Shown piece after piece: positions 9,602 to 28,677 of a stretch of DNA of 42,630 nucleotides. Both the position numbers and the translations under genes were made by a program. Within the stretch, counting starts at the first letter, position 1; every line of letters begins with the position of its first letter. This DNA is from Gammaproteobacteria bacterium. GTDB lineage: Bacteria > Pseudomonadota > Gammaproteobacteria > Steroidobacterales > Steroidobacteraceae. Under the pieces are notes generated by a model. It saw only the letters and a list, made by a program, of their open reading frames with translations, searched no databases and was not told the DNA's origin. The stretch is from assembly GCA_019136105.1 (NCBI GenBank), contig JAGVUU010000297.1, forward strand, positions 1-42,630, in the 5' to 3' direction.

Positions 9602-10546
9602 GTGCGCAAGCCCAACGTCTTCGCGGGACCGTACCTCGACCGCGCCGCCCACCTGCGCAAGGACGCGGCCTGGGTCGCTGCGGCCCTCGCCGATCCGGGC
9701 ACGCTGATCGTGCCGCTCTGGCAGGCGCGCAATCTCGTGCGCCGCGGTGATCGCGCTTCCACTGCGGCCTTCGTCGAGGTGACCCACGAGATCCGCCGCA
9801 CGCTGCCGGACGGCGAACTGGTGTTGCTCGGCCAGTTCCGCGGCCACGCGGTCTTCGCGGCGGAGATCGCGGCGGAATCACCGCCCGCGCTGCTGCCGGA
9901 CGCGACGTTCGAGGACCTGCGCACGGCAGGCGGCTTCCTGCCGCACGATGAAGCGGGGCTGCTCGCCTATGCGCGTGCACTGATCCTCTGGCGCCAGCGG
10001 AACCGTTACTGCGGCAGTTGCGGCGCACCGGCGCGCGCCGAGAGTTCGGGCCACGTGATGCAGTGCACCGCGCGCGGGTGTGGCGCCGAGCATTTTCCGC
10101 GCCTCGACCCCGCCATCATCGTCCTGGTGACCGACGGCGAACGCGCACTGCTCGGACGCCAGGCGGCGTGGCCGCCGGGACGCTACTCGACCATCGCCGG
10201 CTTCGTCGAACCGGGCGAGAGCCTCGAGGACGCCGTGGCGCGCGAAGTGCTCGAGGAAACCGGCGTGCAGGTGCAGGAGTCCGAGTACCACTCGTCGCAG
10301 CCCTGGCCGTTCCCGTCGTCGTTGATGATCGGCTTCACCGCCCGCGCCTCGGCAGGCGCAGTACCTCGCGCGGATGAGGAACTCGAAGACGTCCGATGGT
10401 TCACGCGCGAGGAAATCGCGTCGGGCACGCCGGGCCTGCCACCGCCGCAGTCCGTATCGTTCCGGCTGATCGAGGACTGGTACGACTCCGGGGCTGCGCT
10501 GCCGCTGCGCGAGACGCCGGGCGTCAAGCTCTGGGGCCGCCGCTGA
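9602..10546 (+). CDS. nudC: NAD(+) diphosphatase (NADH pyrophosphatase)
   Basis: Zinc ribbon CGSCG...C..RGC. Nudix box GFVEPGESLEDAVAREVLEETGV. SQPWPFPSSLM NADH-pyrophosphatase signature. GTG start. Confidence 0.85.
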   Translation: MRKPNVFAGPYLDRAAHLRKDAAWVAAALADPGTLIVPLWQARNLVRRGDRASTAAFVEVTHEIRRTLPDGELVLLGQFRGHAVFAAEIAAESPPALLPDATFEDLRTAGGFLPHDEAGLLAYARALILWRQRNRYCGSCGAPARAESSGHVMQCTARGCGAEHFPRLDPAIIVLVTDGERALLGRQAAWPPGRYSTIAGFVEPGESLEDAVAREVLEETGVQVQESEYHSSQPWPFPSSLMIGFTARASAGAVPRADEELEDVRWFTREEIASGTPGLPPPQSVSFRLIEDWYDSGAALPLRETPGVKLWGRR

Positions 10547-10568
10547 GCGGCCGGCCGGTCCTGAGCGC

Positions 10569-11339
10569 GTGGGTTTCGAAATCGTCTTCGTGCTCGTCGC
10601 GGCGTTCGGCGCCGGCGTGATCGACGCGATGGCGGGCGGCGGCGGTCTCGTGCAGTTGCCCGCACTGTTCGCTGCGTACCCCACCGCGCCCCACACCACC
10701 CTGCTCGGCACGGGCAAGCTCGCGGGCTTCGCCGGTACCACGAGCGCGATCTTCCGCTTCGTCCGCCACGTCAGCATCGACTGGAAGCTCGTGCTGCCGG
10801 CCGCTGTGGGGGCGTTCGTCGCTGCATTAGTCGGCGCATGGATCGCCACCAGCATCCCGCCCGACCGGTTCCGCGCCATGGTGCCGGTGCTGCTCACGCT
10901 GGTGCTCGCCTACACCCTGCTGCACAAGGATTTCGGCCTGCAGCACCGCCCGCGCGGCCAGGGGCGGCGTGGCCGGGCGCTCGCCGCCGCGGGCGCCGGC
11001 GTGATCGGCCTGTACGACGGGTTCTTCGGTCCGGGCACCGGCAGCTTCCTGGTGTTCCTGTTCGTACGCGGTTTCGGGCTCGACTTCCTGCACGCCTCGG
11101 CGTCCGCAAAGATCGTCAATGCGACGACCAACATCGCGGCACTCATCCTGTTCGGCCTGACCGGCGAACTGCTGTGGCTGCTGGGACTGGCCATGGCGGT
11201 CTGCAACGTGGCTGGCGCCCAGGTGGGCAGCCATCTGGCGATCCGCCGCGGCAGCGGATTCGTGCGCGTGGTGTTCCTTCTGGTGGTGGGCTCGCTGATC
11301 GCCAAGACCGCCTGGGACGCGCTCGCCGCCCTTCCCTGA
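10569..11339 (+). CDS. TauE/SafE family sulfite/anion exporter-like membrane protein
   Basis: GAGVIDAMAGGGGLVQLPAL N-terminal motif, with a repeated half carrying GLYDGFFGPGTGSF. About 8 transmembrane segments. Confidence 0.85.
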   Translation: MGFEIVFVLVAAFGAGVIDAMAGGGGLVQLPALFAAYPTAPHTTLLGTGKLAGFAGTTSAIFRFVRHVSIDWKLVLPAAVGAFVAALVGAWIATSIPPDRFRAMVPVLLTLVLAYTLLHKDFGLQHRPRGQGRRGRALAAAGAGVIGLYDGFFGPGTGSFLVFLFVRGFGLDFLHASASAKIVNATTNIAALILFGLTGELLWLLGLAMAVCNVAGAQVGSHLAIRRGSGFVRVVFLLVVGSLIAKTAWDALAALP

Positions 11340-20369: not shown

Positions 20370-20403
20370 CCCGGCGGCCGCAGCCCGGCAAGTGCTCCCG
20401 GAC

Positions 20404-20430
20404 GGGGCCCGGTGCGACGCGCCGGGCCCC
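20404..20430 (+). terminator. GC-rich stem-loop downstream of the membrane protein gene (GGGGCCCGG-n9-CCGGGCCCC) with no U-tract
   Basis: 9-bp perfect stem read from the sequence. The lack of a T-run makes the terminator function uncertain. Confidence 0.3.
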
Positions 20431-20464
20431 GTCGTCATCGGGGGGCCAGCGATGCTTGACAAGT

Positions 20465-20503
20465 CGTGCATAATTATGCACATTCGGATGCTAATTATTC
20501 ACC
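20465..20503. promoter_or_regulatory. Tandem ARG boxes (ArgR operator) just downstream of a perfect TTGACA (20456-20461)
   Basis: Box 1: cGTGCATAATTATGCACa, whose 16-bp core is a perfect palindrome. A 3-bp spacer follows. Box 2: gGATGCTAATTATTCACc. The 18+3+18 geometry and the TGNAT-AATT-ATNCA form match the E. coli ARG-box pair. Confidence 0.7.
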
Positions 20504-20982
20504 CTGCCAGACCCGGACGCACCCCCTTGGCCACCGACCCCCACTCCCAGCTGCACCGCCGGGATGCGATCGCGCGCATCCTGCGGCAGACCGCGGTCGG
20601 CCGGCAGGCCGAGCTCGTGGAGTTGCTGCGCGCGGAGGGTTTCGAGGCCACGCAGTCGAGCGTGAGCCGCGACCTGCGCGAGCTCGGCGTCGTGAAGGGC
20701 GCGGACCGATACCTGCTGCCAGCGGTTGAAGACGCGCTGACGCCGAGTCACTTCGAGGCCGTGCAGTCGTTCGTCAAGGGTTACCGGGCCGCGGGCCCCA
20801 ACCTGACGGTGCTGCGCACCACGGCCGGCACGGCCCAGAGTGTCGCCATCGCCCTCGACAAGGCGCGCTGGCCAGAGATCGTCGGCACCATCGCGGGCGA
20901 CGACACGATCATGATCGCGACCGCGAGCGCACGCACCCAGCGCCGCTTGCACGCGCACCTCCAAGCCATTTTCGGACGCTGA
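20488..20982 (+). CDS. argR: Arginine repressor ArgR. The start is uncertain: ATG 20488 lies inside ARG box 2, and TTG 20527 is an alternative.
   Basis: ELVELLRAEGFEATQSSVSRDLRELGVVK is the winged-helix region. The C-terminal GTIAGDDTIMIA matches the arginine-binding GTIAGDDT motif. Confidence 0.85.
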   Translation: MLIIHPARPGRTPLATDPHSQLHRRDAIARILRQTAVGRQAELVELLRAEGFEATQSSVSRDLRELGVVKGADRYLLPAVEDALTPSHFEAVQSFVKGYRAAGPNLTVLRTTAGTAQSVAIALDKARWPEIVGTIAGDDTIMIATASARTQRRLHAHLQAIFGR

Positions 20983-20990
20983 GAACTGCC

Positions 20991-22220
20991 ATGACCCAGA
21001 CCTCCGCGGGCGCCAAGCCCATCCTGCTCGCTTTCTCCGGCGGCCTCGACACCTCGTTCTGCGTGCCGTGGCTCGCGGAAACCTACGGCCGCCCGGTCGT
21101 CACGCTCACGGTGAACACCGGCAGCATCGACGACGCCACCGCGAAGATGCTCGAGGAGCGCTCGAAGACCCTCGGCGCGGTCCAGCACTACCTCGTCGAC
21201 GCGCGGCCGGCGTACTTCGAGCAGGTGATCAAGTTCCTGATCATGGGCAACGTGCGCCGCGGCAACCTCTACCCGCTGTGCGTGGGCGCCGAGCGCGTGC
21301 TGCAGGCGCAGACCGTCGCGCAGTGGGCGCGCAAGCTCGGCACCGAGGTCGTCGCGCACGGCTCCACCGCTGCGGGCAACGACCAGGTGCGCTTCGAGGT
21401 GGCGCTGCGCACGCTCGCGCCGGAGCTCGAGATCCTGGCGCCGGTGCGCGATCGCGCGTTCAAGCGCCCCGAGCAGCTCGCCTACCTCGAGTCGCGCCAG
21501 CTGCCGGTGCCGCCGTTCGGCGCGGCGTACTCGGTGAATCGCGGCCTCTGGGGCACCACGATCGGCGGCAAGGAGACGCTCGTCTCCGACACCTGCATCC
21601 CCGACACCGCCTGGGTGCTGACCCGCGAGGCGTTCACGAATCCGCACGCCCCGGAGCGGCACACCATCGGCTTCGAGGCCGGCGTGCCCTGCTCGCTCGA
21701 TGGCAGGAAGATGGATGCGGTGAGCCTGATCGAAGCCGTCGAGTCGCTCGGCGCGAGGTTCGGCATCGGCCGCGGCATCCACCTGGGCGACACGATCATC
21801 GGTTTCAAGGGCCGCGTGGCGTTCGAGGCGCCGGCCGCCGAGATCCTGCTGAATGCGCACCGCGAACTCGAGAAGCTGGTGCTGTCAGCGCGCCAGGCGC
21901 GCCTAAAGGACTCGCTCGCCGGCCCGTACGGCGACCTCGTCCACGAAGGCCAGCACCTCGACCCGGTGTGCCGCGACATCGAGACGTTCTTCGTGTCGTC
22001 GCAGGCGCGCGTCACCGGCGAGGTGCACGTGCTGCTGCGGCCGGGCACGGTGTTCGTCGAGGGCGTGGCCTCGCCCTGGTCGCTGATGAAGGCCTCGAAG
22101 GGCGCCTACGGTGAATCCGCCGGCGAGTGGACCGCCGCCGAGGCGCACGGCTTTTCCAAGATGCTGGCGCTGCCGGGCATCTTCTACACGCGGGCCGGCC
22201 GGTCCGCGCAGGGAGAGTGA
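20991..22220 (+). CDS. argG: Argininosuccinate synthase
   Basis: AFSGGLDTS ATP-pyrophosphatase motif. 409 aa. Confidence 0.95.
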   Translation: MTQTSAGAKPILLAFSGGLDTSFCVPWLAETYGRPVVTLTVNTGSIDDATAKMLEERSKTLGAVQHYLVDARPAYFEQVIKFLIMGNVRRGNLYPLCVGAERVLQAQTVAQWARKLGTEVVAHGSTAAGNDQVRFEVALRTLAPELEILAPVRDRAFKRPEQLAYLESRQLPVPPFGAAYSVNRGLWGTTIGGKETLVSDTCIPDTAWVLTREAFTNPHAPERHTIGFEAGVPCSLDGRKMDAVSLIEAVESLGARFGIGRGIHLGDTIIGFKGRVAFEAPAAEILLNAHRELEKLVLSARQARLKDSLAGPYGDLVHEGQHLDPVCRDIETFFVSSQARVTGEVHVLLRPGTVFVEGVASPWSLMKASKGAYGESAGEWTAAEAHGFSKMLALPGIFYTRAGRSAQGE

Positions 22221-22222
22221 CG

Positions 22223-23314
22223 ATGGCAAGCCAGATGCGCACCGTCGTCGTCGACAAGATCGCCTCGATCGCGCAGGCCTGCGGCCTCAGCCACGAGATC
22301 CGCATCGCCACGCAGGACATCCCCTGCGAGGAAGGCGTGGTGCTGGTGGTCGAGGTCCTGAACAACAAGTCCACCTACAACACCCTGGAGCTCACCAGCG
22401 GCCGCATGGCGAAGGTGTCGCGTGGCGACGTGATCGTGGGCGCGCTCGGCCACCGCCAGGCGCTGTTCGGTTACTCGGGACACATCCCGGAGAAGGTGCA
22501 GGCGGGCGACATCGTGCAGCTCCTGAACATCGGCGGCGTGCTCGGCGTCTGCGATTCGGTGAACCCCGACAAGGGCCAGCCGTTCGACTGCCGCGTGCTC
22601 GGCTGCGTGCTGCAGTTCCCGTTCCTCGGCGAACGCATCGGCGTGCCGGCCAGGGTCGGCAGCCGCAAGCTCGACTACGCGGCGGGGCTCGATACGCACG
22701 GCGTACCCGTGGTGGCGCTCGCGGGCACCTGCATGGAGGCCGGCAAGACAGCCGCTGCCTGCGCGATCGTGAGCCGCATGCGTCACCGCGGCCTGTCGGT
22801 GCACGCATTCAAGGCCACCGGCGTGTCGCTGCGCCGTGACATCCTCGCCATGGAGGACTCGGGTGCGCGCCGCAGCATGATCTTCACGGATCTCGGCATC
22901 TGCACCACGACTGCAAAGTCGGGGCCGGCGCTCACTCGCACGATGCTGACCGAGATGACGCAGGGACGCCCCGACGTCGTCGTGTTCGAGCTCGGCGACG
23001 GCATCCTCGGAGCCTACGGCGTCGAGGCGATCCTCGCCGAGCACGACATCCGCATGGCGCTCACCGCCGTGGTGCTGTCGGCGAATGACCCGGTCGCGGC
23101 GTGGGGCGGCGTCAAGCTGCTGCGCGAGCGCTTCGACATCGAGCCCTGTGCTGTGACGGGGCCGGCCACCGACAACGCGGTGGGCGTGAACATCATCCAG
23201 GACCAGATGAGCGTGCGCGCGTTCAACGCCATGGCCTCGGGTGCCGCGCTGGGCGACCACATCATCGAAAGCCTCGGCCTCGGCGCGCAGCTCGCGCGAG
23301 CCGCCGCAGAATGA
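22223..23314 (+). CDS. Uncharacterised 363-aa protein embedded in the arg operon. The C-terminal half is a BioD/CobQ/DUF1611-like P-loop domain.
   Basis: The ATG lies 2 nt after the argG stop, with GGGAGAG upstream. Its TGA overlaps the argC ATG (ATGA). Motifs: VVALAGTCMEAGKTAAAC, FKATG and DVVVFELGDGILG. No canonical Arg enzyme signature. Confidence 0.7.
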   Translation: MASQMRTVVVDKIASIAQACGLSHEIRIATQDIPCEEGVVLVVEVLNNKSTYNTLELTSGRMAKVSRGDVIVGALGHRQALFGYSGHIPEKVQAGDIVQLLNIGGVLGVCDSVNPDKGQPFDCRVLGCVLQFPFLGERIGVPARVGSRKLDYAAGLDTHGVPVVALAGTCMEAGKTAAACAIVSRMRHRGLSVHAFKATGVSLRRDILAMEDSGARRSMIFTDLGICTTTAKSGPALTRTMLTEMTQGRPDVVVFELGDGILGAYGVEAILAEHDIRMALTAVVLSANDPVAAWGGVKLLRERFDIEPCAVTGPATDNAVGVNIIQDQMSVRAFNAMASGAALGDHIIESLGLGAQLARAAAE

Positions 23315-24372
23315 GCCCGCGCATCCCGGCGATCGTGCTGGGCGGCACCGGCTACGTGGCCGGCGAATTGCTGCGCCTGCTCGCCACGCACCCACACCTC
23401 GACCTCGCGGCGGTCGCCTCCGACAGCCAGCCCGACGAGCCCATCGCGCAGTTCTTCCGCCACCTGCAGCCGGTGCTGCCGCACCTGCGATTCGCCGGGC
23501 ACGACGAGGTCGTCGAGTACGTCACGGCCAACCCGGTCACGGCCGTGTTCTCGGCGGCGCCGCACGGCGTGTCGGCGGCCATGATCGACAAGCTGCTCGC
23601 CGCCGCCGAGCAGGCCGGCACGCAGCCGCGCGTCGTGGACATCTCGGCGGATTTCCGCTTCCGCACGGAGGAAGCGTACGAGGCGGTCTACAAGCACCCG
23701 CACGGCGCGCCGGCGCGGATCGCGCAGTTCTCCTGCGCCGTGCCCGAGCACCTGAACACGCTGCACACGCCGCACGTCGCGCACCCGGGTTGCTTCGCCA
23801 CGGCCATGCTGCTCGCGAGCGTTCCGCTGCTGTCGCTCGGACTGGTCGAGCCACGGCTGTTCGTCAGCGGCGTCACCGGCAGCACCGGCGCCGGGCGCCA
23901 GCCGACCGCCGGCACGCATCACCCGCAGCGCCACTCCGACCTGTACTCTTACAACGCGCTGACCCACCGCCACGCACCCGAGGTGCGGGCGCTCGCGCTC
24001 GAGGCAAGCGGCGTGGATGCCGACCTGCACTTCGTACCGCACTCCGGGCCTTTCGCGCGCGGCATCCACGTCACCGTGCAGGCCGTCGCGCGCGAGCCGC
24101 TCACCAGCCACGAGCTGGTGAACGCCCTGCGCGATTACTACGACCAGTCGGTGTTCGTGCGCGTGGCCGGGGAGGCGCCCCGCGTCAAGGACGTGGTGGC
24201 GAGCAACTTCGCGCAGCTGTCCGGCGTGGCTCACGGCGACAGCGTCGTCGTCACCTGTGTCGTCGACAACCTGACCAAGGGCGCGGCGGGTGGCGCCGTG
24301 CAGTGGATGAACCGGATGCTCGGGTTCGACGAAACCGCGGGACTGATGCAGGCGGCGGCAGGATGGACATGA
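23311..24372 (+). CDS. argC: N-acetyl-gamma-glutamyl-phosphate reductase
   Basis: VLGGTGYVAGELLRLL Rossmann motif. Catalytic HPGCFATA matches the PGCYPT-type Cys motif. Confidence 0.9.
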   Translation: MSPRIPAIVLGGTGYVAGELLRLLATHPHLDLAAVASDSQPDEPIAQFFRHLQPVLPHLRFAGHDEVVEYVTANPVTAVFSAAPHGVSAAMIDKLLAAAEQAGTQPRVVDISADFRFRTEEAYEAVYKHPHGAPARIAQFSCAVPEHLNTLHTPHVAHPGCFATAMLLASVPLLSLGLVEPRLFVSGVTGSTGAGRQPTAGTHHPQRHSDLYSYNALTHRHAPEVRALALEASGVDADLHFVPHSGPFARGIHVTVQAVAREPLTSHELVNALRDYYDQSVFVRVAGEAPRVKDVVASNFAQLSGVAHGDSVVVTCVVDNLTKGAAGGAVQWMNRMLGFDETAGLMQAAAGWT

Positions 24373-25508
24373 CCACCGACCATCTGGCTCCCGTCTACGC
24401 CCAATGGCCGCTCGACGTCGTCGACGCGGAGGGCGTGCACCTGCGCACGCGCGACGGACGGCGCATCCTCGACCTCTACGGCGGCCATGCGGTGGCGGCG
24501 CTCGGATACTCGCACCCGCGATGGCACACGGCTCTCGAGCAGCAGGCCCGGGCGTTGCTGTTCCAGAGCAACGCCGTGCCGCTCGGCGTCCGGGCCCGGG
24601 CGGCTACGCGCCTCACGCGTTTCGCCGGCCTGGGACTCGACACGGCGTTCTTCGTCAACACGGGCGCCGAGTCGAACGAGAACGCCCTCAAGCTGGCACT
24701 CAAGATCACGGGCCGCCGCACGGTGGTGGCAATCGAGGGCAGCTTCCACGGCCGCACCGCCGCGGCCGGTGCAGTCACCTGGGGCGCCGCGAAGAAGTGG
24801 TACGGCTTCCCGCAGATGCCGTTCGACGTGGAGTTCATCCCGCGCGGCGACCTCGGCGCGATTGCGCGCGTGATTGGCACGGACACCGCCGCCGTGATCG
24901 CCGAACCGGTGCAGGGCGTCGCAGGCGCCGTGGACCTCGGCCAGGAATTCCTGGCCGCACTGAGAGCACGCTGCAGCGAGACCTGCGCGATGCTGATCCT
25001 CGACGAAGTGCAGTGCGGCATGGGCCGCACCGGCTTCCCGTTCGCGGCGAACATGCACGGCATCGCGCCCGACATGCTGACGACGGCCAAGGCGCTCGGC
25101 GCAGGCTTTCCCTGTGCGGCGCTGCTGATGGCGGACCACGTCGCGGCGCACCTCAAGACTGACGACCTCGGCACCACTTTCGGCGGCGGCCCGATGGCGT
25201 GCGCGCTGATCGAAGCGGTGGTGGACATCATCGAAAGCGAAGGGCTGCTCGCCAACGTGCGCAGGTTGTCGCAACTGATCCGCGAGACCTGCGTCGTCGG
25301 TCCGGTGGTCGCGACTCAGGGCGCCGGGTTCCTGCTGGGGCTGCGCACCCGCCGCCCCGCGAAGGACGTGCAGCGCGAACTGCTCGAGCGCGACATCCTC
25401 ACCGGCACCAGCGGTGACCCCAACGTGGTGCGCATCCTGGCACCCTACGTGCTCGAGGCGCAGCACGTCGCCCAGCTGCGTGACGCGTTGGTGTCGCTGC
25501 CTGGTTGA
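24369..25508 (+). CDS. argD: Acetylornithine (acyl-ornithine) aminotransferase, class III PLP enzyme
   Basis: GAESNENALKLA, ILDEVQCGMGRTG and TTAKALGAGFP (PLP lysine). The start is the ATGA overlap at 24369, with an alternative ATG at 24363. Confidence 0.85.
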   Translation: MTTDHLAPVYAQWPLDVVDAEGVHLRTRDGRRILDLYGGHAVAALGYSHPRWHTALEQQARALLFQSNAVPLGVRARAATRLTRFAGLGLDTAFFVNTGAESNENALKLALKITGRRTVVAIEGSFHGRTAAAGAVTWGAAKKWYGFPQMPFDVEFIPRGDLGAIARVIGTDTAAVIAEPVQGVAGAVDLGQEFLAALRARCSETCAMLILDEVQCGMGRTGFPFAANMHGIAPDMLTTAKALGAGFPCAALLMADHVAAHLKTDDLGTTFGGGPMACALIEAVVDIIESEGLLANVRRLSQLIRETCVVGPVVATQGAGFLLGLRTRRPAKDVQRELLERDILTGTSGDPNVVRILAPYVLEAQHVAQLRDALVSLPG

Positions 25509-25525
25509 GGCTGCTGCTCTCACTA

Positions 25526-25557
25526 CCCCCTATTCACTAGTCACTAGTCACTTCCTC
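25526..25557 (+). repeat. Heptad-repeat element, copy C: CCCCC-TATTCAC-TAGTCAC-TAGTCAC-TTCCTC, directly abutting the argF' ATG
   Basis: Read directly. It occupies most of the 49-nt argD-argF' gap. Confidence 0.8.
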
Positions 25558-26556
25558 ATGCATCGCTTCCTCGACCTCGCCGACTTCTCCCGCGACCAGG
25601 TGGCGGACCTGATCGACCTCGCGCGCCGCCTGCAGGAGCACCCGGAGCCGCATGCGCTCGCCGGCAAGATCCTCGGCCTGCTGTTCATGAACCCGTCGCT
25701 GCGCACGCTGTCCTCGTTCCAGGCTGGCATGATGCGGCTCGGCGGCACGTCGTTCGTGGTGACGCCCGGCCAGGGAACCTGGAACGTCGAGACTCGCGAC
25801 GGCACGGTGATGAACGGCGGCGCAGCCGAGCACGTGCGCGAAGCGATCCCGGTGCTCGCGTCGTACTGCGACGCGCTCGGCCTGCGCGCCTTCGCGGAGG
25901 GCAAGGATCTCGCGGCCGACCTCGCCGAGACGCCGTTCAACCTGATGGCGAACCTCTGCCCGAAGCCTTTCGTCAACCTCGAGTCCGCCGTGAACCACCC
26001 GTGCCAGGCGCTCGCGGACTGGAAGACGATGGACGACCTCCACGTGCCGCGCGCTGGCAAGTTCGTGCTGTCCTGGGTCTATCACCCGCGCGCACTGCCG
26101 CTCGCCGTGCCGGCGGCGGCACTGCACATGGCCGCGCAGCGCGGCATGGAAGTGGTGGTACTGCGTCCCGACGGTTACGCATTGCCCGAGCCCATCATGG
26201 CAAAGGCGCGCGCCGCTGCAACCGCGTCCGGCGGCACGGTCAGCGAAACGACCGATCGCGCGACCGCGCTCGCTGGTGCGCACGTGCTGTACGCAAAGGA
26301 ATGGGGCTCACCCGCCTGCTACGGCAACGCCGAGGCGGAAGCCGCGCTGCGCCAGCCGCTCGTCGACTGGCGCGTGCAGGAATCCTGGTTCGCCGGCGCG
26401 CGCCCGGATTGCCACTTCATGCACTGCCTGCCCGTGCGACGCAACGTCGCCGTGGCGGACGCGGTGCTCGACGGGCCGCGATCGCAGGTGATCCGCGAGG
26501 CTGCCAACCGCATGGTCGTGCAGATGGCCGTGCTCTACCGACTGCTCAAGGGGTAA
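25558..26556 (+). CDS. argF': N-acyl-L-ornithine carbamoyltransferase (AOTCase/SOTCase-type, ArgF')
   Basis: FMNPSLRT, WNVETRDGTVMNGGAAEHVREAIPVL (compare X. campestris AOTCase WPIEFNLGTVMDGDTEEHIAEVARVL from memory), HPCQALAD, VLSWVYHPR and HCLPVRRN. Confidence 0.85.
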   Translation: MHRFLDLADFSRDQVADLIDLARRLQEHPEPHALAGKILGLLFMNPSLRTLSSFQAGMMRLGGTSFVVTPGQGTWNVETRDGTVMNGGAAEHVREAIPVLASYCDALGLRAFAEGKDLAADLAETPFNLMANLCPKPFVNLESAVNHPCQALADWKTMDDLHVPRAGKFVLSWVYHPRALPLAVPAAALHMAAQRGMEVVVLRPDGYALPEPIMAKARAAATASGGTVSETTDRATALAGAHVLYAKEWGSPACYGNAEAEAALRQPLVDWRVQESWFAGARPDCHFMHCLPVRRNVAVADAVLDGPRSQVIREAANRMVVQMAVLYRLLKG

Positions 26557-26563
26557 GACGAAG

Positions 26564-27493
26564 ATGATCGGACACAAGGGCGAACAGGCCGTCACGGTTC
26601 GGGCGCTGCGCGGGGCGGCGCCCTACATCCACATGTACAAGGGCAAGGTCTTCGTCATCAAGACCGGCGGCGGCGCGTTCCGCGACGTCGCGACCATGCG
26701 CGCGTTCATGGAGCAGGTGGCGATCCTGCACCACCTCGGCATCCGCGTGGTCCTGGTGCACGGCGGTTGCCCGCAGCTCGACGACGTCACGCAGAAGATG
26801 GGCGTCGAGACTCGCATGGTGCAGGGCCGGCGCGTGACCGACGACGCCGCGATCGACACCACGGCCATGGTGCTGAACGGCCTGATCAACACCCGCCTGC
26901 TGGCACTGTGCCGCGAGTTCGGCATCGCCGCGATCGGCGTGAGCGGCGTGGACGGCGGCCTGGTCAGGGCGCACAAGCGCGCGCCCGTCACGCTCGCAAG
27001 CGGCGAGGTGGTGGACTACGGCATGGTCGGCGACATCGATGGCATCGACGCGTCGGTGATCACGCGCCTGCTCGACGCCGGCTTCCTGCCTGTAGTGAGT
27101 CCGTTGTCGGCCGACGCCTCGGGCCAGCTGCTCAACATCAACGCCGACACCGTGGCGGCTGCGATCGGCGGCGCAATGGATGCCGAGAAGCTGATTCTCT
27201 GCACCGGTGCGCCGGGCATCCTCGAGCGGCTCGACGATCCGCACTCGCTGATCTCCTACACCGACGTCGCCGGCCTGCGCCGCTTGCGCGAGGAAGGCGC
27301 GCTCTCGGACGGCATGCTGCCGAAGTCGAGCGCCATCGAGTCCGCCATCCGCGGCGGCGTACGGCGCGTGCACGTGATCTCTTACGCCGCTCCGGACGCG
27401 CTGCTCGCCGAGATCTTCACCAACGAAGGCACCGGCACGCTGGTCGTCGCCGACACCAAGGCGCTGAGCGCGGCGGAACAGGGGGCCAAGTGA
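26564..27493 (+). CDS. argB: Acetylglutamate kinase (kinase domain only, 309 aa)
   Basis: VIKTGGGA, VLVHGG and LLNINADTVAAAI amino-acid-kinase motifs. No C-terminal GNAT extension. Confidence 0.9.
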   Translation: MIGHKGEQAVTVRALRGAAPYIHMYKGKVFVIKTGGGAFRDVATMRAFMEQVAILHHLGIRVVLVHGGCPQLDDVTQKMGVETRMVQGRRVTDDAAIDTTAMVLNGLINTRLLALCREFGIAAIGVSGVDGGLVRAHKRAPVTLASGEVVDYGMVGDIDGIDASVITRLLDAGFLPVVSPLSADASGQLLNINADTVAAAIGGAMDAEKLILCTGAPGILERLDDPHSLISYTDVAGLRRLREEGALSDGMLPKSSAIESAIRGGVRRVHVISYAAPDALLAEIFTNEGTGTLVVADTKALSAAEQGAK

Positions 27494-28677
27494 CACGACT
27501 TTGGGACAAGGGTGCCCCGCTCGACGAGCGCGTGCTGCGCTACACCGCCGGCGAGGACCACGCGCTCGACAACCGGCTGGTGGCCTACGACGTGCGCGCC
27601 TCGATCGCGCACGCCGAGATGCTGCACGACGCGGGCCTGGTGAGCGACGCCGACCTCGAGGCGATCCGCAACGGCCTGAACGAGATCGCCGCTGAACACG
27701 CTCGCGGCGAGTGGTCGGTGACGCTCGACCTCGAGGACGGCCAGACCGCGCTCGAGACATTGCTCACCAAGAAGACCGGTGCCGCGGGCGCACGCCTGCA
27801 TGCCGGCCGTTCGCGCAACGACCAGGTGCTGACCGCGTTGCGCCTGTACCTGCGCGACGCCGTCGAGGAACTGGTCGAGGGCGCCCACCACGTGGCCGAG
27901 GCGCTCGAAGGCCTGGCGAAGGAACAGGGCGCGATCGAGCTGCCCGGCTACACGCACATGCAGCAGGCGATGCCGAGCTCGGTGGCGCTGTGGGCGCGTG
28001 GCTTCGCCGCAGAGATCGTGGACGACGCCGACGGCCTGCGGCATGCATTCCGCCGCATCCTCAAGAATCCGCTCGGGAGCGCAGCCGGCTACGGCACGCC
28101 GAACCTGCCGGTGAACCGCGACGGCACGCGACGGCGGCTCGACTTCCCGCAGAACCACGAGCCGGTGACGGCCGTCCAGCTGTCGCGCGGCAAGGCCGAG
28201 GCGGAAGTGCTGTTCCAGGTGGCGATCCTGATGCAGGACCTCGGCCGCCTCGCCTCCGACCTGCTGCTCTTCTACACGCGCGAGTTCGGGTTCGTCGACC
28301 TGCCGGACGCCTTCACGACCGGTTCGTCGATCATGCCGCAGAAGCGCAACCCCGACGTGTTCGAACTCGTGCGCGGCCGCACGGCGACGGCGCAGGCCTG
28401 CCTCACGGAGGTGCTCGGCATCACCGCCAAGCTGCCGTCGGGCTACCAGCGCGACCTGCAGCTGATCAAGGCGCCGCTGTTCCGCTCGATCGACCTCTGC
28501 GGCGACTCGCTTGCGATCATGGCGGCCGCGATCCCGCAGTTGCGCTTCCGGCCGGAACGGATCCGCATGGACGCCGACATCCACGCGGCCGCCGAGGCGA
28601 ACGCCCTGGTGGCGAAGGAAGGCATCCCGTTCCGCGAGGCATACCGGCGCGTGGGGCAAAAATTGCGCGAGGACTGA
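27490..28677 (+). CDS. argH: Argininosuccinate lyase
   Basis: The GTG overlaps the argB stop (GTGA). GRSRNDQV and GSSIMPQKRNPD signature motifs. Confidence 0.9.
   Translation: MTRLWDKGAPLDERVLRYTAGEDHALDNRLVAYDVRASIAHAEMLHDAGLVSDADLEAIRNGLNEIAAEHARGEWSVTLDLEDGQTALETLLTKKTGAAGARLHAGRSRNDQVLTALRLYLRDAVEELVEGAHHVAEALEGLAKEQGAIELPGYTHMQQAMPSSVALWARGFAAEIVDDADGLRHAFRRILKNPLGSAAGYGTPNLPVNRDGTRRRLDFPQNHEPVTAVQLSRGKAEAEVLFQVAILMQDLGRLASDLLLFYTREFGFVDLPDAFTTGSSIMPQKRNPDVFELVRGRTATAQACLTEVLGITAKLPSGYQRDLQLIKAPLFRSIDLCGDSLAIMAAAIPQLRFRPERIRMDADIHAAAEANALVAKEGIPFREAYRRVGQKLRED

What the first reader, a model, noticed from the sequence alone, without database searches (positions are those of the whole stretch)
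22223..23314. Unassignable P-loop protein translationally coupled inside the arginine operon: candidate missing acylation or deacylation enzyme
**Position.**
- The 363-aa ORF starts 2 nt after the argG stop.
- It ends in an ATGA overlap with the argC start.
- It is therefore an integral member of the operon argR-argG-X-argC-argD-argF'-argB-argH.

**Sequence.**
- It carries none of the canonical Arg enzyme signatures.
- Its C-terminal half has VVALAGTCMEAGKTAAAC, a GTxxxxGKT Walker A of the kind seen in BioD, CobQ/CobB and DUF1611.
- This is followed by FKATG and by the strand-plus-acidic motif DVVVFELGDGILG (compare BioD VLVEGAGG and DUF1611 EGQGS).
- The N-terminal ~190 aa look beta-rich, and I cannot place them.

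**Pathway gap.**
- The operon encodes an acyl-ornithine transcarbamylase route.
- That route needs a glutamate N-acylating enzyme and an N-acyl-citrulline deacylase.
- No ArgA, ArgJ, GNAT or ArgE/M20 gene is in the window.
- ArgB is kinase-only, with no fused acetyltransferase as in the Xanthomonas NAGS/K.

**Precedent and hypothesis.**
- From memory, the DUF1611 member DgcN has been described as an acetyl-CoA-dependent D-glutamate N-acetyltransferase. A related fold acylating glutamate therefore has precedent.
- X could be a non-orthologous replacement of ArgA, either acyl-CoA dependent or an ATP-dependent acid:glutamate ligase.
- Less likely, X supplies the deacylation step.
Basis: partly seen in the sequence, partly recalled or inferred. 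Interest (0 to 1): 0.85.

Follow-up and report, generated by a model that had tools for sequence, protein, structure and literature searches.

The report
Predicted replacement for arginine enzyme ArgA
A conserved two-domain P-loop protein inside the arginine operon is most likely the missing first enzyme, which puts a succinyl protecting group on glutamate, but a 2024-2026 preprint already predicted this for the same protein family and nobody has tested it.

Summary
**Observation: confirmed.** X (22223-23314, 363 aa) starts 2 nt after the argG stop and overlaps the argC start in ATGA. It sits in argR-argG-X-argC-argD-argF'-argB-argH. No Pfam or NCBIfam family claims it.

**Interpretation: supported by comparative evidence, not proven.**
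- The same gene order recurs in 80 Steroidobacteraceae loci.
- X is also linked to arg genes in Acidobacteriota, Planctomycetota, Wallbacteria, Peregrinibacteria and an Asgard archaeon.
- Some operons carry X together with an M20 or AstE-type deacylase, so X is not the deacylase.
- Split clusters keep X with the early genes (X-argC-argB, X-argC-argD-argB).
- One homologue is fused in frame to ArgB.
- Linked ArgF' proteins carry Ala, never Glu, at the specificity position. This points to succinylated intermediates.

**Fold.** An N-terminal all-beta domain has no PDB match. The C-terminal domain is a BioD/DUF1611-class P-loop that keeps the equivalents of BioD K15, T16, K37 and E115.

**Not new.** Price et al. 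(bioRxiv 10.1101/2024.10.14.618325) already predict the Steroidobacter orthologue ACG33_RS14135 as an alternative N-succinylglutamate synthase.

**Still open.**
- The biochemical proof.
- The acyl donor: succinyl-CoA, or ATP plus succinate.
- The missing desuccinylase.

The parts
20466..20481 (.). Perfect 16-bp palindrome GTGCATAATTATGCAC, an ARG-box-like operator upstream of argR
   Evidence: The core TGCATAATTATGCA is unique in the window. It is present at the same relative position in 21 Steroidobacteraceae loci. Sequence read.
20392..20982 (+). argR, the arginine repressor. The ORF opens at 20392; the likely start is TTG 20527.
   Evidence: Pfam Arg_repressor and Arg_repressor_C. Start candidates listed.
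20991..22220 (+). argG, argininosuccinate synthase
   Evidence: Pfam Arginosuc_synth and Arginosuc_syn_C.
22223..23314 (+). [quoted passage not shown]
   Evidence: Operon conservation. Published prediction.
22223..22690 (+). X N-terminal all-beta domain (residues 1 to about 156). Family-invariant residues S15, G38, R78, P89 and G105.
   Evidence: AF2 models with pLDDT 90.6 and 87.4. No PDB structural match, best E 0.64. Invariant residues.
22724..22750 (+). X Walker A motif GTCMEAGKT (residues 168-176)
   Evidence: G174, K175 and T176 are invariant in 45 diverse members. The motif aligns with BioD G8-T16.
22811..22813 (+). X K197, the invariant Lys of the K-x-T-G motif
   Evidence: Invariant in the family. 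Aligns with BioD K37.
22973..23011 (+). X Walker-B-like strand and loop DVVVFELGDGILG (residues 251-263). E256 and G258 are invariant.
   Evidence: E256 aligns with BioD E115.
23311..24372 (+). [quoted passage not shown]
   Evidence: TIGR01850, 288.7 bits against a cut-off of 233.6.
24369..25508 (+). argD, N-acylornithine aminotransferase
   Evidence: NCBIfam argD-family hits in this frame. Start read.
25558..26556 (+). argF', N-acylornithine carbamoyltransferase. Ala (codon 25825-25827) stands at the position of Xanthomonas AOTCase E92.
   Evidence: NF003384, 354 bits. The best PDB hit is the 3L02 variant, which has Ala where wild-type 3KZC has Glu. Among linked ArgF' proteins the position is Ala in 63 of 66, Thr in 2 and Gln in 1.
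26564..27493 (+). argB, N-acylglutamate kinase (kinase domain only)
   Evidence: Pfam AA_kinase and TIGR00761 at 202 bits.
27490..28677 (+). argH, argininosuccinate lyase (short 395-aa form)
   Evidence: Pfam Lyase_1. C-terminal shortening shown.

Best explanation
**What it does.** X catalyses the first step of a Bacteroides-type arginine pathway that runs on N-succinylated intermediates. It makes N-succinyl-L-glutamate, the substrate of ArgB, and so replaces the unrelated GNAT enzyme ArgA.

**Shown**
- X is a real, translationally coupled operon member that is conserved across phyla.
- It has an orphan all-beta N-domain.
- Its C-domain is a BioD/DUF1611-class P-loop with intact phosphate- and Mg-binding residues.
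- It co-occurs with separate deacylases.
- The linked ArgF' proteins carry the succinyl-type residue.

**Inferred**
- The P-loop holds the diphosphate of the acyl donor or cosubstrate.
- Glutamate binds at the domain interface, possibly through the invariant R78.

**Donor.** My preferred donor is succinyl-CoA, on the precedent of the DUF1611 enzyme DgcN (about 0.4). ATP plus free succinate, through an acyl phosphate as in BioD or CobQ chemistry, comes second (about 0.25).

The confidence given (0.65) is for the step-1 role whichever donor is used.
For: **Operon context**
- argR-argG-X-argC-argD-argF'-argB-argH recurs in most of 80 Steroidobacteraceae loci.
- The same core order occurs in Acidobacteriota, Planctomycetota, a JGI contig, Peregrinibacteria, Wallbacteria and an Asgard archaeon.

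**Elimination**
- In the and operons (M20) and the operon (AstE-like), every step except glutamate acylation is assigned and X is the only unassigned gene (family assignments).

**Association with the early steps**
- Seven loci carry only X-argC-argB.
- L090 carries X-argC-argD-argB.
- P0215 is an in-frame fusion of X to an ArgB-like kinase.

**Acyl group**
- The window ArgF' has Ala at the AOTCase E92 position.
- None of 66 linked ArgF' proteins has Glu there.
- The E92 rule and the same inference are given in the preprint and in PMC7311316.

**Fold**
- The AF2 model has pLDDT 90.6.
- Foldseek matches BioD, SRP GTPases, HypB, DUF1611 entry 2OBN and CTP synthase.
- hhalign maps K175/T176, K197 and E256 onto BioD K15/T16, K37 and E115.

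**Literature**
- S. denitrificans grows on minimal medium, has no ArgA homologue, and carries the orthologue ACG33_RS14135.
- X homologues and ArgA homologues are never found in the same genome.

**Regulation**
- A conserved ARG-box-like palindrome lies upstream of argR.
Against: - There is no biochemical or genetic test anywhere.
- I could not search the source genome, or any other X-carrying genome, for argA, argJ or argE.
- The similarity to DgcN/DUF1611 is no better than to BioD, SRP GTPases or HypB, so the fold does not specify acyl transfer.
- The N-domain has no characterised relative.
- Steroidobacteraceae and Acidobacteriota operons have two pathway holes (ArgA and ArgE) but only one unassigned gene.
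- Two candidate-phyla-radiation (CPR) homologues have no arg genes nearby.
- The X-ArgB fusion is a single metagenomic prediction.
Confidence: 0.65

Rival explanations
1. Same step, different chemistry. X is a CoA-independent, ATP-dependent succinate:L-glutamate ligase. The P-loop phosphorylates succinate to succinyl phosphate and the glutamate amine attacks it, as in the carboxyl or carbamate activation performed by BioD, CobB/CobQ and CTP synthase. Succinate released by the desuccinylase would then be a recycled protecting group.
For: - The best structural matches are dethiobiotin synthetases, at E 2.6e-6. These rank ahead of DUF1611, at 5e-5.
- The best PDB profile hit is BioD.
- The BioD residues for gamma-phosphate and Mg binding (K15, T16, K37, E115) are invariant in the X family.
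- CbiA and AAA_26 models hit many members.
- X is present in Peregrinibacteria. From general knowledge, CPR bacteria usually lack a TCA cycle and so have little succinyl-CoA.
Against: - DUF1611 keeps the same motifs, and its one characterised member reportedly uses acetyl-CoA (cited; the primary paper was not readable).
- No N-acyl-amino-acid ligase of this fold is known to me.
- Nothing in the gene context speaks for ATP over CoA.
Confidence: 0.25
2. X is an accessory NTPase with no acyl-transfer activity of its own. It could be a regulator, assembly factor or metallochaperone-like partner of the arginine enzymes. In that case step 1 is done by an unrecognised enzyme elsewhere in the genome.
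For: - Foldseek also matches HypB, with TMt 0.62 and rmsd 4.5, and SRP-type GTPases.
- MobB models hit 28 of 45 members.
- Two CPR homologues lie outside arg clusters.
Against: - Reading the sequence, I see no metal-binding Cys/His cluster and no NKxD-type motif.
- Strict co-transcription with biosynthetic genes, the reported absence of ArgA homologues from all X-carrying genomes, and the persistence of X in minimal X-argC-argB clusters all fit an enzyme better than a helper.
Confidence: 0.1
3. X is an ArgJ-like transacylase that moves the succinyl group from N-succinylcitrulline (or N-succinylornithine) to glutamate. This would close both the ArgA and the ArgE holes in Steroidobacteraceae with one protein.
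For: - S. denitrificans lacks both ArgA and ArgE.
- No M20 or AstE homologue lies within 10 kb of X in the window, in any of 80 Steroidobacteraceae loci, or in two Acidobacteriota loci.
Against: - Other lineages keep a dedicated deacylase next to X.
- An isoenergetic acyl shuttle has no need for an intact NTP-binding site.
- There is no similarity to the ArgJ fold.
Confidence: 0.05
4. X is the N-acylcitrulline deacylase (ArgE function).
For: ArgE is also missing from the window and from S. denitrificans.
Against: - X co-occurs in one operon with ArgE/DapE-family or AstE-family hydrolases.
- When operons split, X stays with argB and argC, not with argF', argG or argH.
- X has no hydrolase fold or metal site.
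Confidence: 0.03

Closest known systems
[quoted passage not shown]
   Same: - Same bacterial family and same position in the arg cluster.
- Same reasoning: operon context, absence of ArgA, and ArgF' position 92.
- Window X is 77% identical to the S. flavus protein that occupies the identical operon slot.
   Different: - Nothing substantive differs; the window gene is another orthologue.
- I did not have the A0A127FCT3 sequence to align directly.
- The preprint's assignment is a prediction without experiment.
DgcN / DUF1611 (PF07755), D-glutamate N-acetyltransferase, PDB 7XRJ; DUF1611 structure 2OBN
   Same: - A P-loop domain of the BioD-like class with GT-x4-GK[T], K/T-G and E-G-x-G motifs.
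- The substrate is glutamate and the product an N-acylglutamate, according to the literature cited.
- 2OBN is a Foldseek match at E 5e-5.
   Different: - X scores below the Pfam threshold, 16.5 against 25 bits.
- There is no DUF1611_N Rossmann-like domain. X has an all-beta N-domain with no PDB match.
- BioD and SRP GTPases score as well or better.
- The substrates are L-Glu and probably succinyl, rather than D-Glu and acetyl.
Dethiobiotin synthetase BioD (and the CobB/CobQ and CTP synthase N-domain group)
   Same: - It is the best structural match, E 2.6e-6, and the best PDB profile match.
- The equivalents of K15, T16, K37 and E115 are invariant in X.
   Different: - X has an extra 155-aa N-domain.
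- Only about 13-17% identity.
- X lies in an arginine context, not a biotin context.
- No family HMM passes its threshold.
GNAT-type N-succinylglutamate synthase of Bacteroidetes (BT3761; related to Cabys_1732)
   Same: - The same proposed reaction.
- The same kind of argR/argG/argC/argD operon, in a pathway with an N-succinylornithine carbamoyltransferase.
   Different: - The fold is unrelated: GNAT against P-loop plus beta domain. X has no GNAT hit.
- BT3761 has genetic support. X has none.
Classical ArgA / bifunctional ArgA-ArgB (NAGS/K) and ArgJ
   Same: - They perform the first pathway step.
- P0215 fuses X to an ArgB-like kinase, much as NAGS/K proteins join an amino-acid-kinase domain to the acyltransferase.
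   Different: No sequence or fold relationship. They use acetyl rather than succinyl.

Membership tests
Predicted alternative N-succinylglutamate synthase family (ACG33_RS14135 type) | Homologue encoded inside an arginine biosynthesis cluster of Steroidobacter and relatives | tested here: met
   - The operon is conserved in 80 Steroidobacteraceae loci, including the isolates S. flavus and P. agariperforans.
Predicted alternative N-succinylglutamate synthase family (ACG33_RS14135 type) | Linked ArgF' has a small or non-acidic residue (A, P, S or V) at AOTCase position 92 | tested here: met
   Ala in the window. Across 66 linked ArgF' proteins: Ala 63, Thr 2, Gln 1, Glu 0.
Predicted alternative N-succinylglutamate synthase family (ACG33_RS14135 type) | The genome lacks ArgA and ArgJ homologues | not testable with these tools
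   - Only the 42.6-kb window and flanks of up to 10 kb are held, and these contain no GNAT or ArgJ gene.
- The genome-wide anti-correlation is reported only in the preprint.
DUF1611 / DgcN (PF07755 plus DUF1611_N) | C-terminal P-loop domain scores above the Pfam gathering threshold | tested here: not met
   16.5 bits against a cut-off of 25, and only residues 159-200 align. The best E-value among 45 family members is 1.3e-5.
DUF1611 / DgcN (PF07755 plus DUF1611_N) | N-terminal Rossmann-like DUF1611_N domain | tested here: not met
   No Pfam hit. The AF2 N-domain is all-beta. Foldseek finds no PDB match, best E 0.64.
DUF1611 / DgcN (PF07755 plus DUF1611_N) | Acyl-CoA-dependent N-acylation of glutamate | not testable with these tools
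   This needs an enzyme assay.
BioD-like ATP-dependent synthetases (AAA_26/CbiA) | Walker A GK[TS], a second Lys (BioD K37) and a Mg-binding Glu (BioD E115) | tested here: met
   hhalign of A1 against E. coli BioD pairs K175/T176, K197 and E256 with these residues. All are invariant in the family.
BioD-like ATP-dependent synthetases (AAA_26/CbiA) | Family HMM above threshold, single-domain architecture, biotin or cobalamin gene context | tested here: not met
   Only weak hits: AAA_26 in 9 of 45 members and CbiA in 28 of 45, best E-values 1.8e-4 and 3.4e-6. X has an extra N-domain and lies in an arg context.
GNAT N-acylglutamate synthases (ArgA, short NAGS, BT3761 type) | GNAT acetyltransferase domain | tested here: not met
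   No GNAT hit in Pfam or NCBIfam.
ArgJ (ornithine acetyltransferase) | ArgJ/DmpA fold | tested here: not met
   No Pfam hit. All structural matches are P-loop NTPases.
ArgE/DapE (M20) or AstE/AspA deacylases | Metallohydrolase domain | tested here: not met
   No hit in X. Genes of these families occur beside X in other operons.
G3E metallochaperone GTPases (HypB/UreG/MeaB) | NKxD base-specificity motif and a metal-binding Cys/His motif | tested here: inconclusive
   - Foldseek matches HypB.
- Reading the sequence and the family alignment, I see neither motif.
- No dedicated profile test was run.

The most novel reading that the evidence does not exclude
X is a CoA-independent, ATP-dependent succinate:L-glutamate ligase. 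It would be a BioD-like P-loop enzyme, joined to a structurally orphan beta domain, that re-attaches free succinate to glutamate through succinyl phosphate. The protecting group of arginine synthesis would then cycle without acyl-CoA. This would be a new enzyme reaction, and it would explain how organisms poor in succinyl-CoA, such as Peregrinibacteria, run the pathway.
Probability: 0.25. Interest if true: 0.8.

Novelty: already known. Interest (0 to 1): 0.4.

Why it matters
**If confirmed**
- X would be a third, evolutionarily independent solution for the first step of arginine synthesis, after the GNAT ArgA types and ArgJ.
- It would close a known pathway gap in Steroidobacteraceae, Blastocatellia-type Acidobacteriota, Planctomycetota, some CPR bacteria and an Asgard archaeon.
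- It would give a function to a family of more than 1,400 clusters at 50% identity that is still annotated as hypothetical.

**Why the discovery value is limited**
- The prediction is already published and built into GapMind.

**What remains open**
- The experimental proof.
- The acyl donor: succinyl-CoA, or ATP plus succinate.
- The role of the orphan N-domain.
- The identity of the still-missing N-succinylcitrulline desuccinylase in Steroidobacteraceae.

Tried and rejected
**Searches that gave nothing useful**
- A single-sequence PDB search gave only noise.
- NCBIfam gave nothing for X.
- Foldseek of the isolated N-domain gave no significant match.

**Searches limited by the tools**
- The genome-contig scan with X alone returned only Steroidobacteraceae at 77-91% identity, because its search patterns come from a single protein.
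I obtained distant contexts through the look-up of encoding contigs instead.
- The primary DgcN paper (PMC10030869) is not held. The acetyl-CoA dependence of DgcN therefore rests on the preprint's citation and on my memory.
- 7XRJ was not among my top 50 Foldseek hits, so I could not reproduce the preprint's specific DgcN match. Only the DUF1611 entry 2OBN appeared.
- No atomic coordinates were available to me, so the pocket could not be analysed.

**Apparent fusions rejected**
- P0178, an apparent X-ArgC fusion, is frameshift junk.
- P0426, at 554 aa, carries an unrelated extension with a hydrophobic segment and is probably a gene-calling fusion.

**Hypotheses rejected**
- A LysW/ArgX carrier-protein route: rejected because the carbamoyltransferase is of the N-acylornithine (AOTCase/SOTCase) class.
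- A deacylase role: rejected because dedicated deacylases occur alongside X.
Full report
**1.

The argG stop (TGA 22218-22220) is followed after 2 nt by the ATG of X at 22223, with AGGGAGAG just upstream. X ends with TGA at 23312-23314, which overlaps the argC ATG at 23311. The 363-aa translation contains the quoted motifs.

Pfam, NCBIfam and PDB searches identify the neighbours:
- argR, argG and argC (TIGR01850).
- argD, whose ATG overlaps the argC stop in ATGA.
- argF' (NF003384 N-acetylornithine carbamoyltransferase, 354 bits against a cut-off of 288).
- A kinase-only argB.
- argH, whose start overlaps the argB stop in GTGA.

Pfam scans of about 40 ORFs across the whole window found no GNAT, ArgJ, M20 or AstE gene.

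X is a real gene. Its GC3 is 0.90. It has more than 7,000 close homologues and 1,433 representative clusters at 50% identity. Every homologue that carries a name is called a hypothetical protein, except one JGI entry named molybdopterin-guanine dinucleotide biosynthesis protein. Pfam gives only a sub-threshold DUF1611 P-loop hit and NCBIfam gives nothing.

**2. Anatomy**

An AlphaFold2 model built on 60 homologues is confident (pLDDT 90.6, pTM 0.88).

*N-terminal domain.* Residues 1 to about 135 form an all-beta domain, followed by a less confident linker up to about residue 160. Modelled alone (pLDDT 87), this domain has no significant Foldseek match in the PDB. The best E-value is 0.64 and TM scores stay below 0.25.

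*C-terminal domain.* This half is a P-loop domain of the SIMIBI class (the NTPase class that includes the signal-recognition-particle GTPases, MinD and BioD). Its best structural matches are:
- Dethiobiotin synthetases, E 2.6e-6.
- SRP/FtsY GTPases.
- HypB.
- The DUF1611 structure 2OBN, E 5e-5, rank 16.
- CTP synthase.

A profile of 45 diverse family members hits BioD best among PDB sequences. Individual members weakly hit the Pfam models DUF1611 (29 of 45), CbiA (28), MobB (28) and AAA_26 (9).

hhalign against E. coli BioD pairs these residues:
- G168-T176 of X with the BioD P-loop G8-T16.
- K197 with K37.
- E256 with E115.

These residues are invariant across the family, as are S15, G38, R78, P89, G105, G200, G214/A215, G225, D289 and G313. 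The conserved Cys of GTCM is replaced by Ser, Ala or Gly in some members, so it is not an obligatory nucleophile.

**3. Context across life**

*Steroidobacteraceae.* In 80 Steroidobacteraceae genomes the order argR-argG-X-argC-argD-argF'-argB-argH is kept wherever the contig allows it to be seen.

*Distant homologues (30-48% identity)* were reached through two profile searches:

| Lineage or locus | Gene order around X |
|---|---|
| Acidobacteriota | argR-argG-X-argC-argD-argF-argB |
| JGI contig | argG-X-argC-argD-argF-argB-M20-argH |
| Planctomycetota | argG-X-argC-argD-argF-argB-M20-argH |
| Peregrinibacteria | argG-argF-X-argC-argD-argB-AstE/AspA-like-argH |
| Asgard archaeon | argG-argH-X-argC-argD-argF |
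| Wallbacteria | argG-X-(1430-aa ORF)-argC |
| 1.7-Mb contig | X-argC-argD-argB |
| Gracilibacteria | X beside an argH-like lyase |

- The M20 gene belongs to the ArgE/DapE family, and the AstE-like gene to the aspartoacylase/succinylglutamate desuccinylase family.
- Two CPR loci show no arg genes nearby.
- Seven Steroidobacteraceae species carry only X-argC-argB.
- One representative, P0215, is an in-frame fusion of X to an ArgB-like kinase with a plausible linker. Another apparent fusion, P0178, is frameshift noise.

**4. Which acyl group**

The window ArgF' is closest to Xanthomonas N-acetylornithine carbamoyltransferase. Its top PDB hit is a variant that carries Ala where the wild type has Glu: query NGGAAEH against wild-type DGDTEEH. 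According to Shi et al. 2007, as cited, replacing E92 with A, P, S or V switches the enzyme to N-succinylornithine.

Across 66 ArgF' genes linked to X, I find Ala in 63, Thr in 2 (Acidobacteriota), Gln in 1 (Peregrinibacteria) and Glu in none. The AstE-type partner in Peregrinibacteria is compatible with desuccinylation, but the family also includes an N-acetyl-amino-acid hydrolase.

**5. Prior art**

Price et al. (GapMind 2026, bioRxiv 10.1101/2024.10.14.618325) already state the following:
- S. denitrificans grows in minimal medium but lacks any ArgA homologue, and also lacks ArgE.
- The hypothetical protein ACG33_RS14135 in its arg cluster is virtually always found in arg operons.
- Homologues of that protein never share a genome with ArgA homologues.
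- Foldseek weakly links it to DgcN (7XRJ).
- 90% of linked ArgF' proteins have A, P, S or V at position 92.

[quoted passage not shown] No experiment is reported, and no other paper in the library mentions the protein.

**6. What my analysis adds or qualifies**

- (a) The link to DgcN is not specific. BioD and other SIMIBI proteins match as well or better. X also fails both defining features of DUF1611: the HMM threshold and the Rossmann-like N-domain. Fold evidence therefore supports a BioD-like nucleotide- or diphosphate-binding catalytic domain. It does not support acyl-CoA transferase chemistry in particular.
- (b) The N-domain is structurally orphan.
- (c) Split clusters and the ArgB fusion tie X specifically to the early steps of the pathway.
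- (d) The deacylase partners differ between lineages: M20, AstE-like or none. No M20 or AstE homologue lies within 10 kb of X in Steroidobacteraceae or Acidobacteriota, so the desuccinylase gap stays open there.
- (e) The family reaches CPR bacteria and an Asgard archaeon.

**7. Mechanism**

Most likely (0.65), X makes N-succinyl-L-glutamate for ArgB. For the donor I prefer succinyl-CoA (about 0.4), on the DgcN precedent. ATP plus succinate through an acyl phosphate (about 0.25) fits the invariant BioD catalytic set and the family's chemistry equally well, and cannot be excluded.

The rivals are less likely:
- Accessory NTPase: 0.10.
- ArgJ-like transacylase: 0.05.
- Deacylase: 0.03.

The operon-level evidence for these rankings is in sections 3 and 6.

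**8. Verdict**

The finding is not new, because it is already in the literature and in GapMind as a prediction. The residual interest lies in the untested biochemistry, the choice of donor, the orphan N-domain and the missing desuccinylase.

Noticed in passing
window 20466-20481: A perfect 16-bp palindrome, GTGCATAATTATGCAC, lies about 45 nt upstream of the likely argR start (TTG 20527), and a second ARG-box-like half-match follows at about 20488-20501. The 14-bp core is unique in the window. It sits at the same relative position in 21 Steroidobacteraceae loci, including two isolates. It is probably the ArgR operator of the whole operon.
   Followed up: partly
window 27490-28677: ArgH is only 395 aa. 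It lacks about 65 C-terminal residues (most of the ASL_C2 domain) that are present in the Planctomycetota and Asgard ArgH. The short form is shared by nearly all Steroidobacteraceae loci, including isolates, so it is a lineage trait and not an assembly error.
   Followed up: partly
L038, L054, L055, L058, L067, L073, L079 (X at about 10001-11050); L090 8001-12014: Seven Steroidobacteraceae species carry a minimal X-argC-argB cluster with no argR, argG, argD, argF' or argH nearby. An unclassified 1.7-Mb contig has X-argC-argD-argB.
   Followed up: partly
protein P0215 (626 aa; 50%-identity representative, contig not retrievable): An in-frame fusion of an X homologue (residues 4-309) to an ArgB-like amino-acid kinase (364-595; TIGR00761 at 127 bits, below its cut-off), joined by a linker of about 50 aa. 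It is a single metagenomic prediction, so an artefact cannot be excluded.
   Followed up: partly
L087 10001-11053; L091 8001-9032; L083 10001-11026: - Two candidate-phyla-radiation homologues (L087, L091) have no arg genes within 8-10 kb. L087 lies divergent to a RimK-type ATP-grasp gene.
- The Gracilibacteria copy (L083) lies divergent to an argH-like lyase and a PRK06886-type amidohydrolase.
- The family may have a second role in these reduced genomes, or their arg genes may be scattered.
   Followed up: no
L086 14055-15089: The Peregrinibacteria arg operon carries an AstE/AspA-family hydrolase between argB and argH, where Planctomycetota have an M20 ArgE/DapE-type gene. It is a candidate non-M20 N-acylcitrulline deacylase. 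Its ArgF' has Gln at the position-92 equivalent.
   Followed up: partly
L081 12340-12956; L089 5664-9956: There are insertions inside otherwise conserved arg operons. In an Acidobacteriota MAG, a HigB-like toxin and an HTH_3 antitoxin pair lie between argC and argD. In Wallbacteria, a 1430-aa ORF with no Pfam hit lies between X and argC.
   Followed up: no
window 25414-25558: The argF' ORF opens at GTG 25414 and would overlap argD by 95 nt. Homology to AOTCase begins near residue 45, and the first ATG is at 25558, which is the likely true start.
   Followed up: yes
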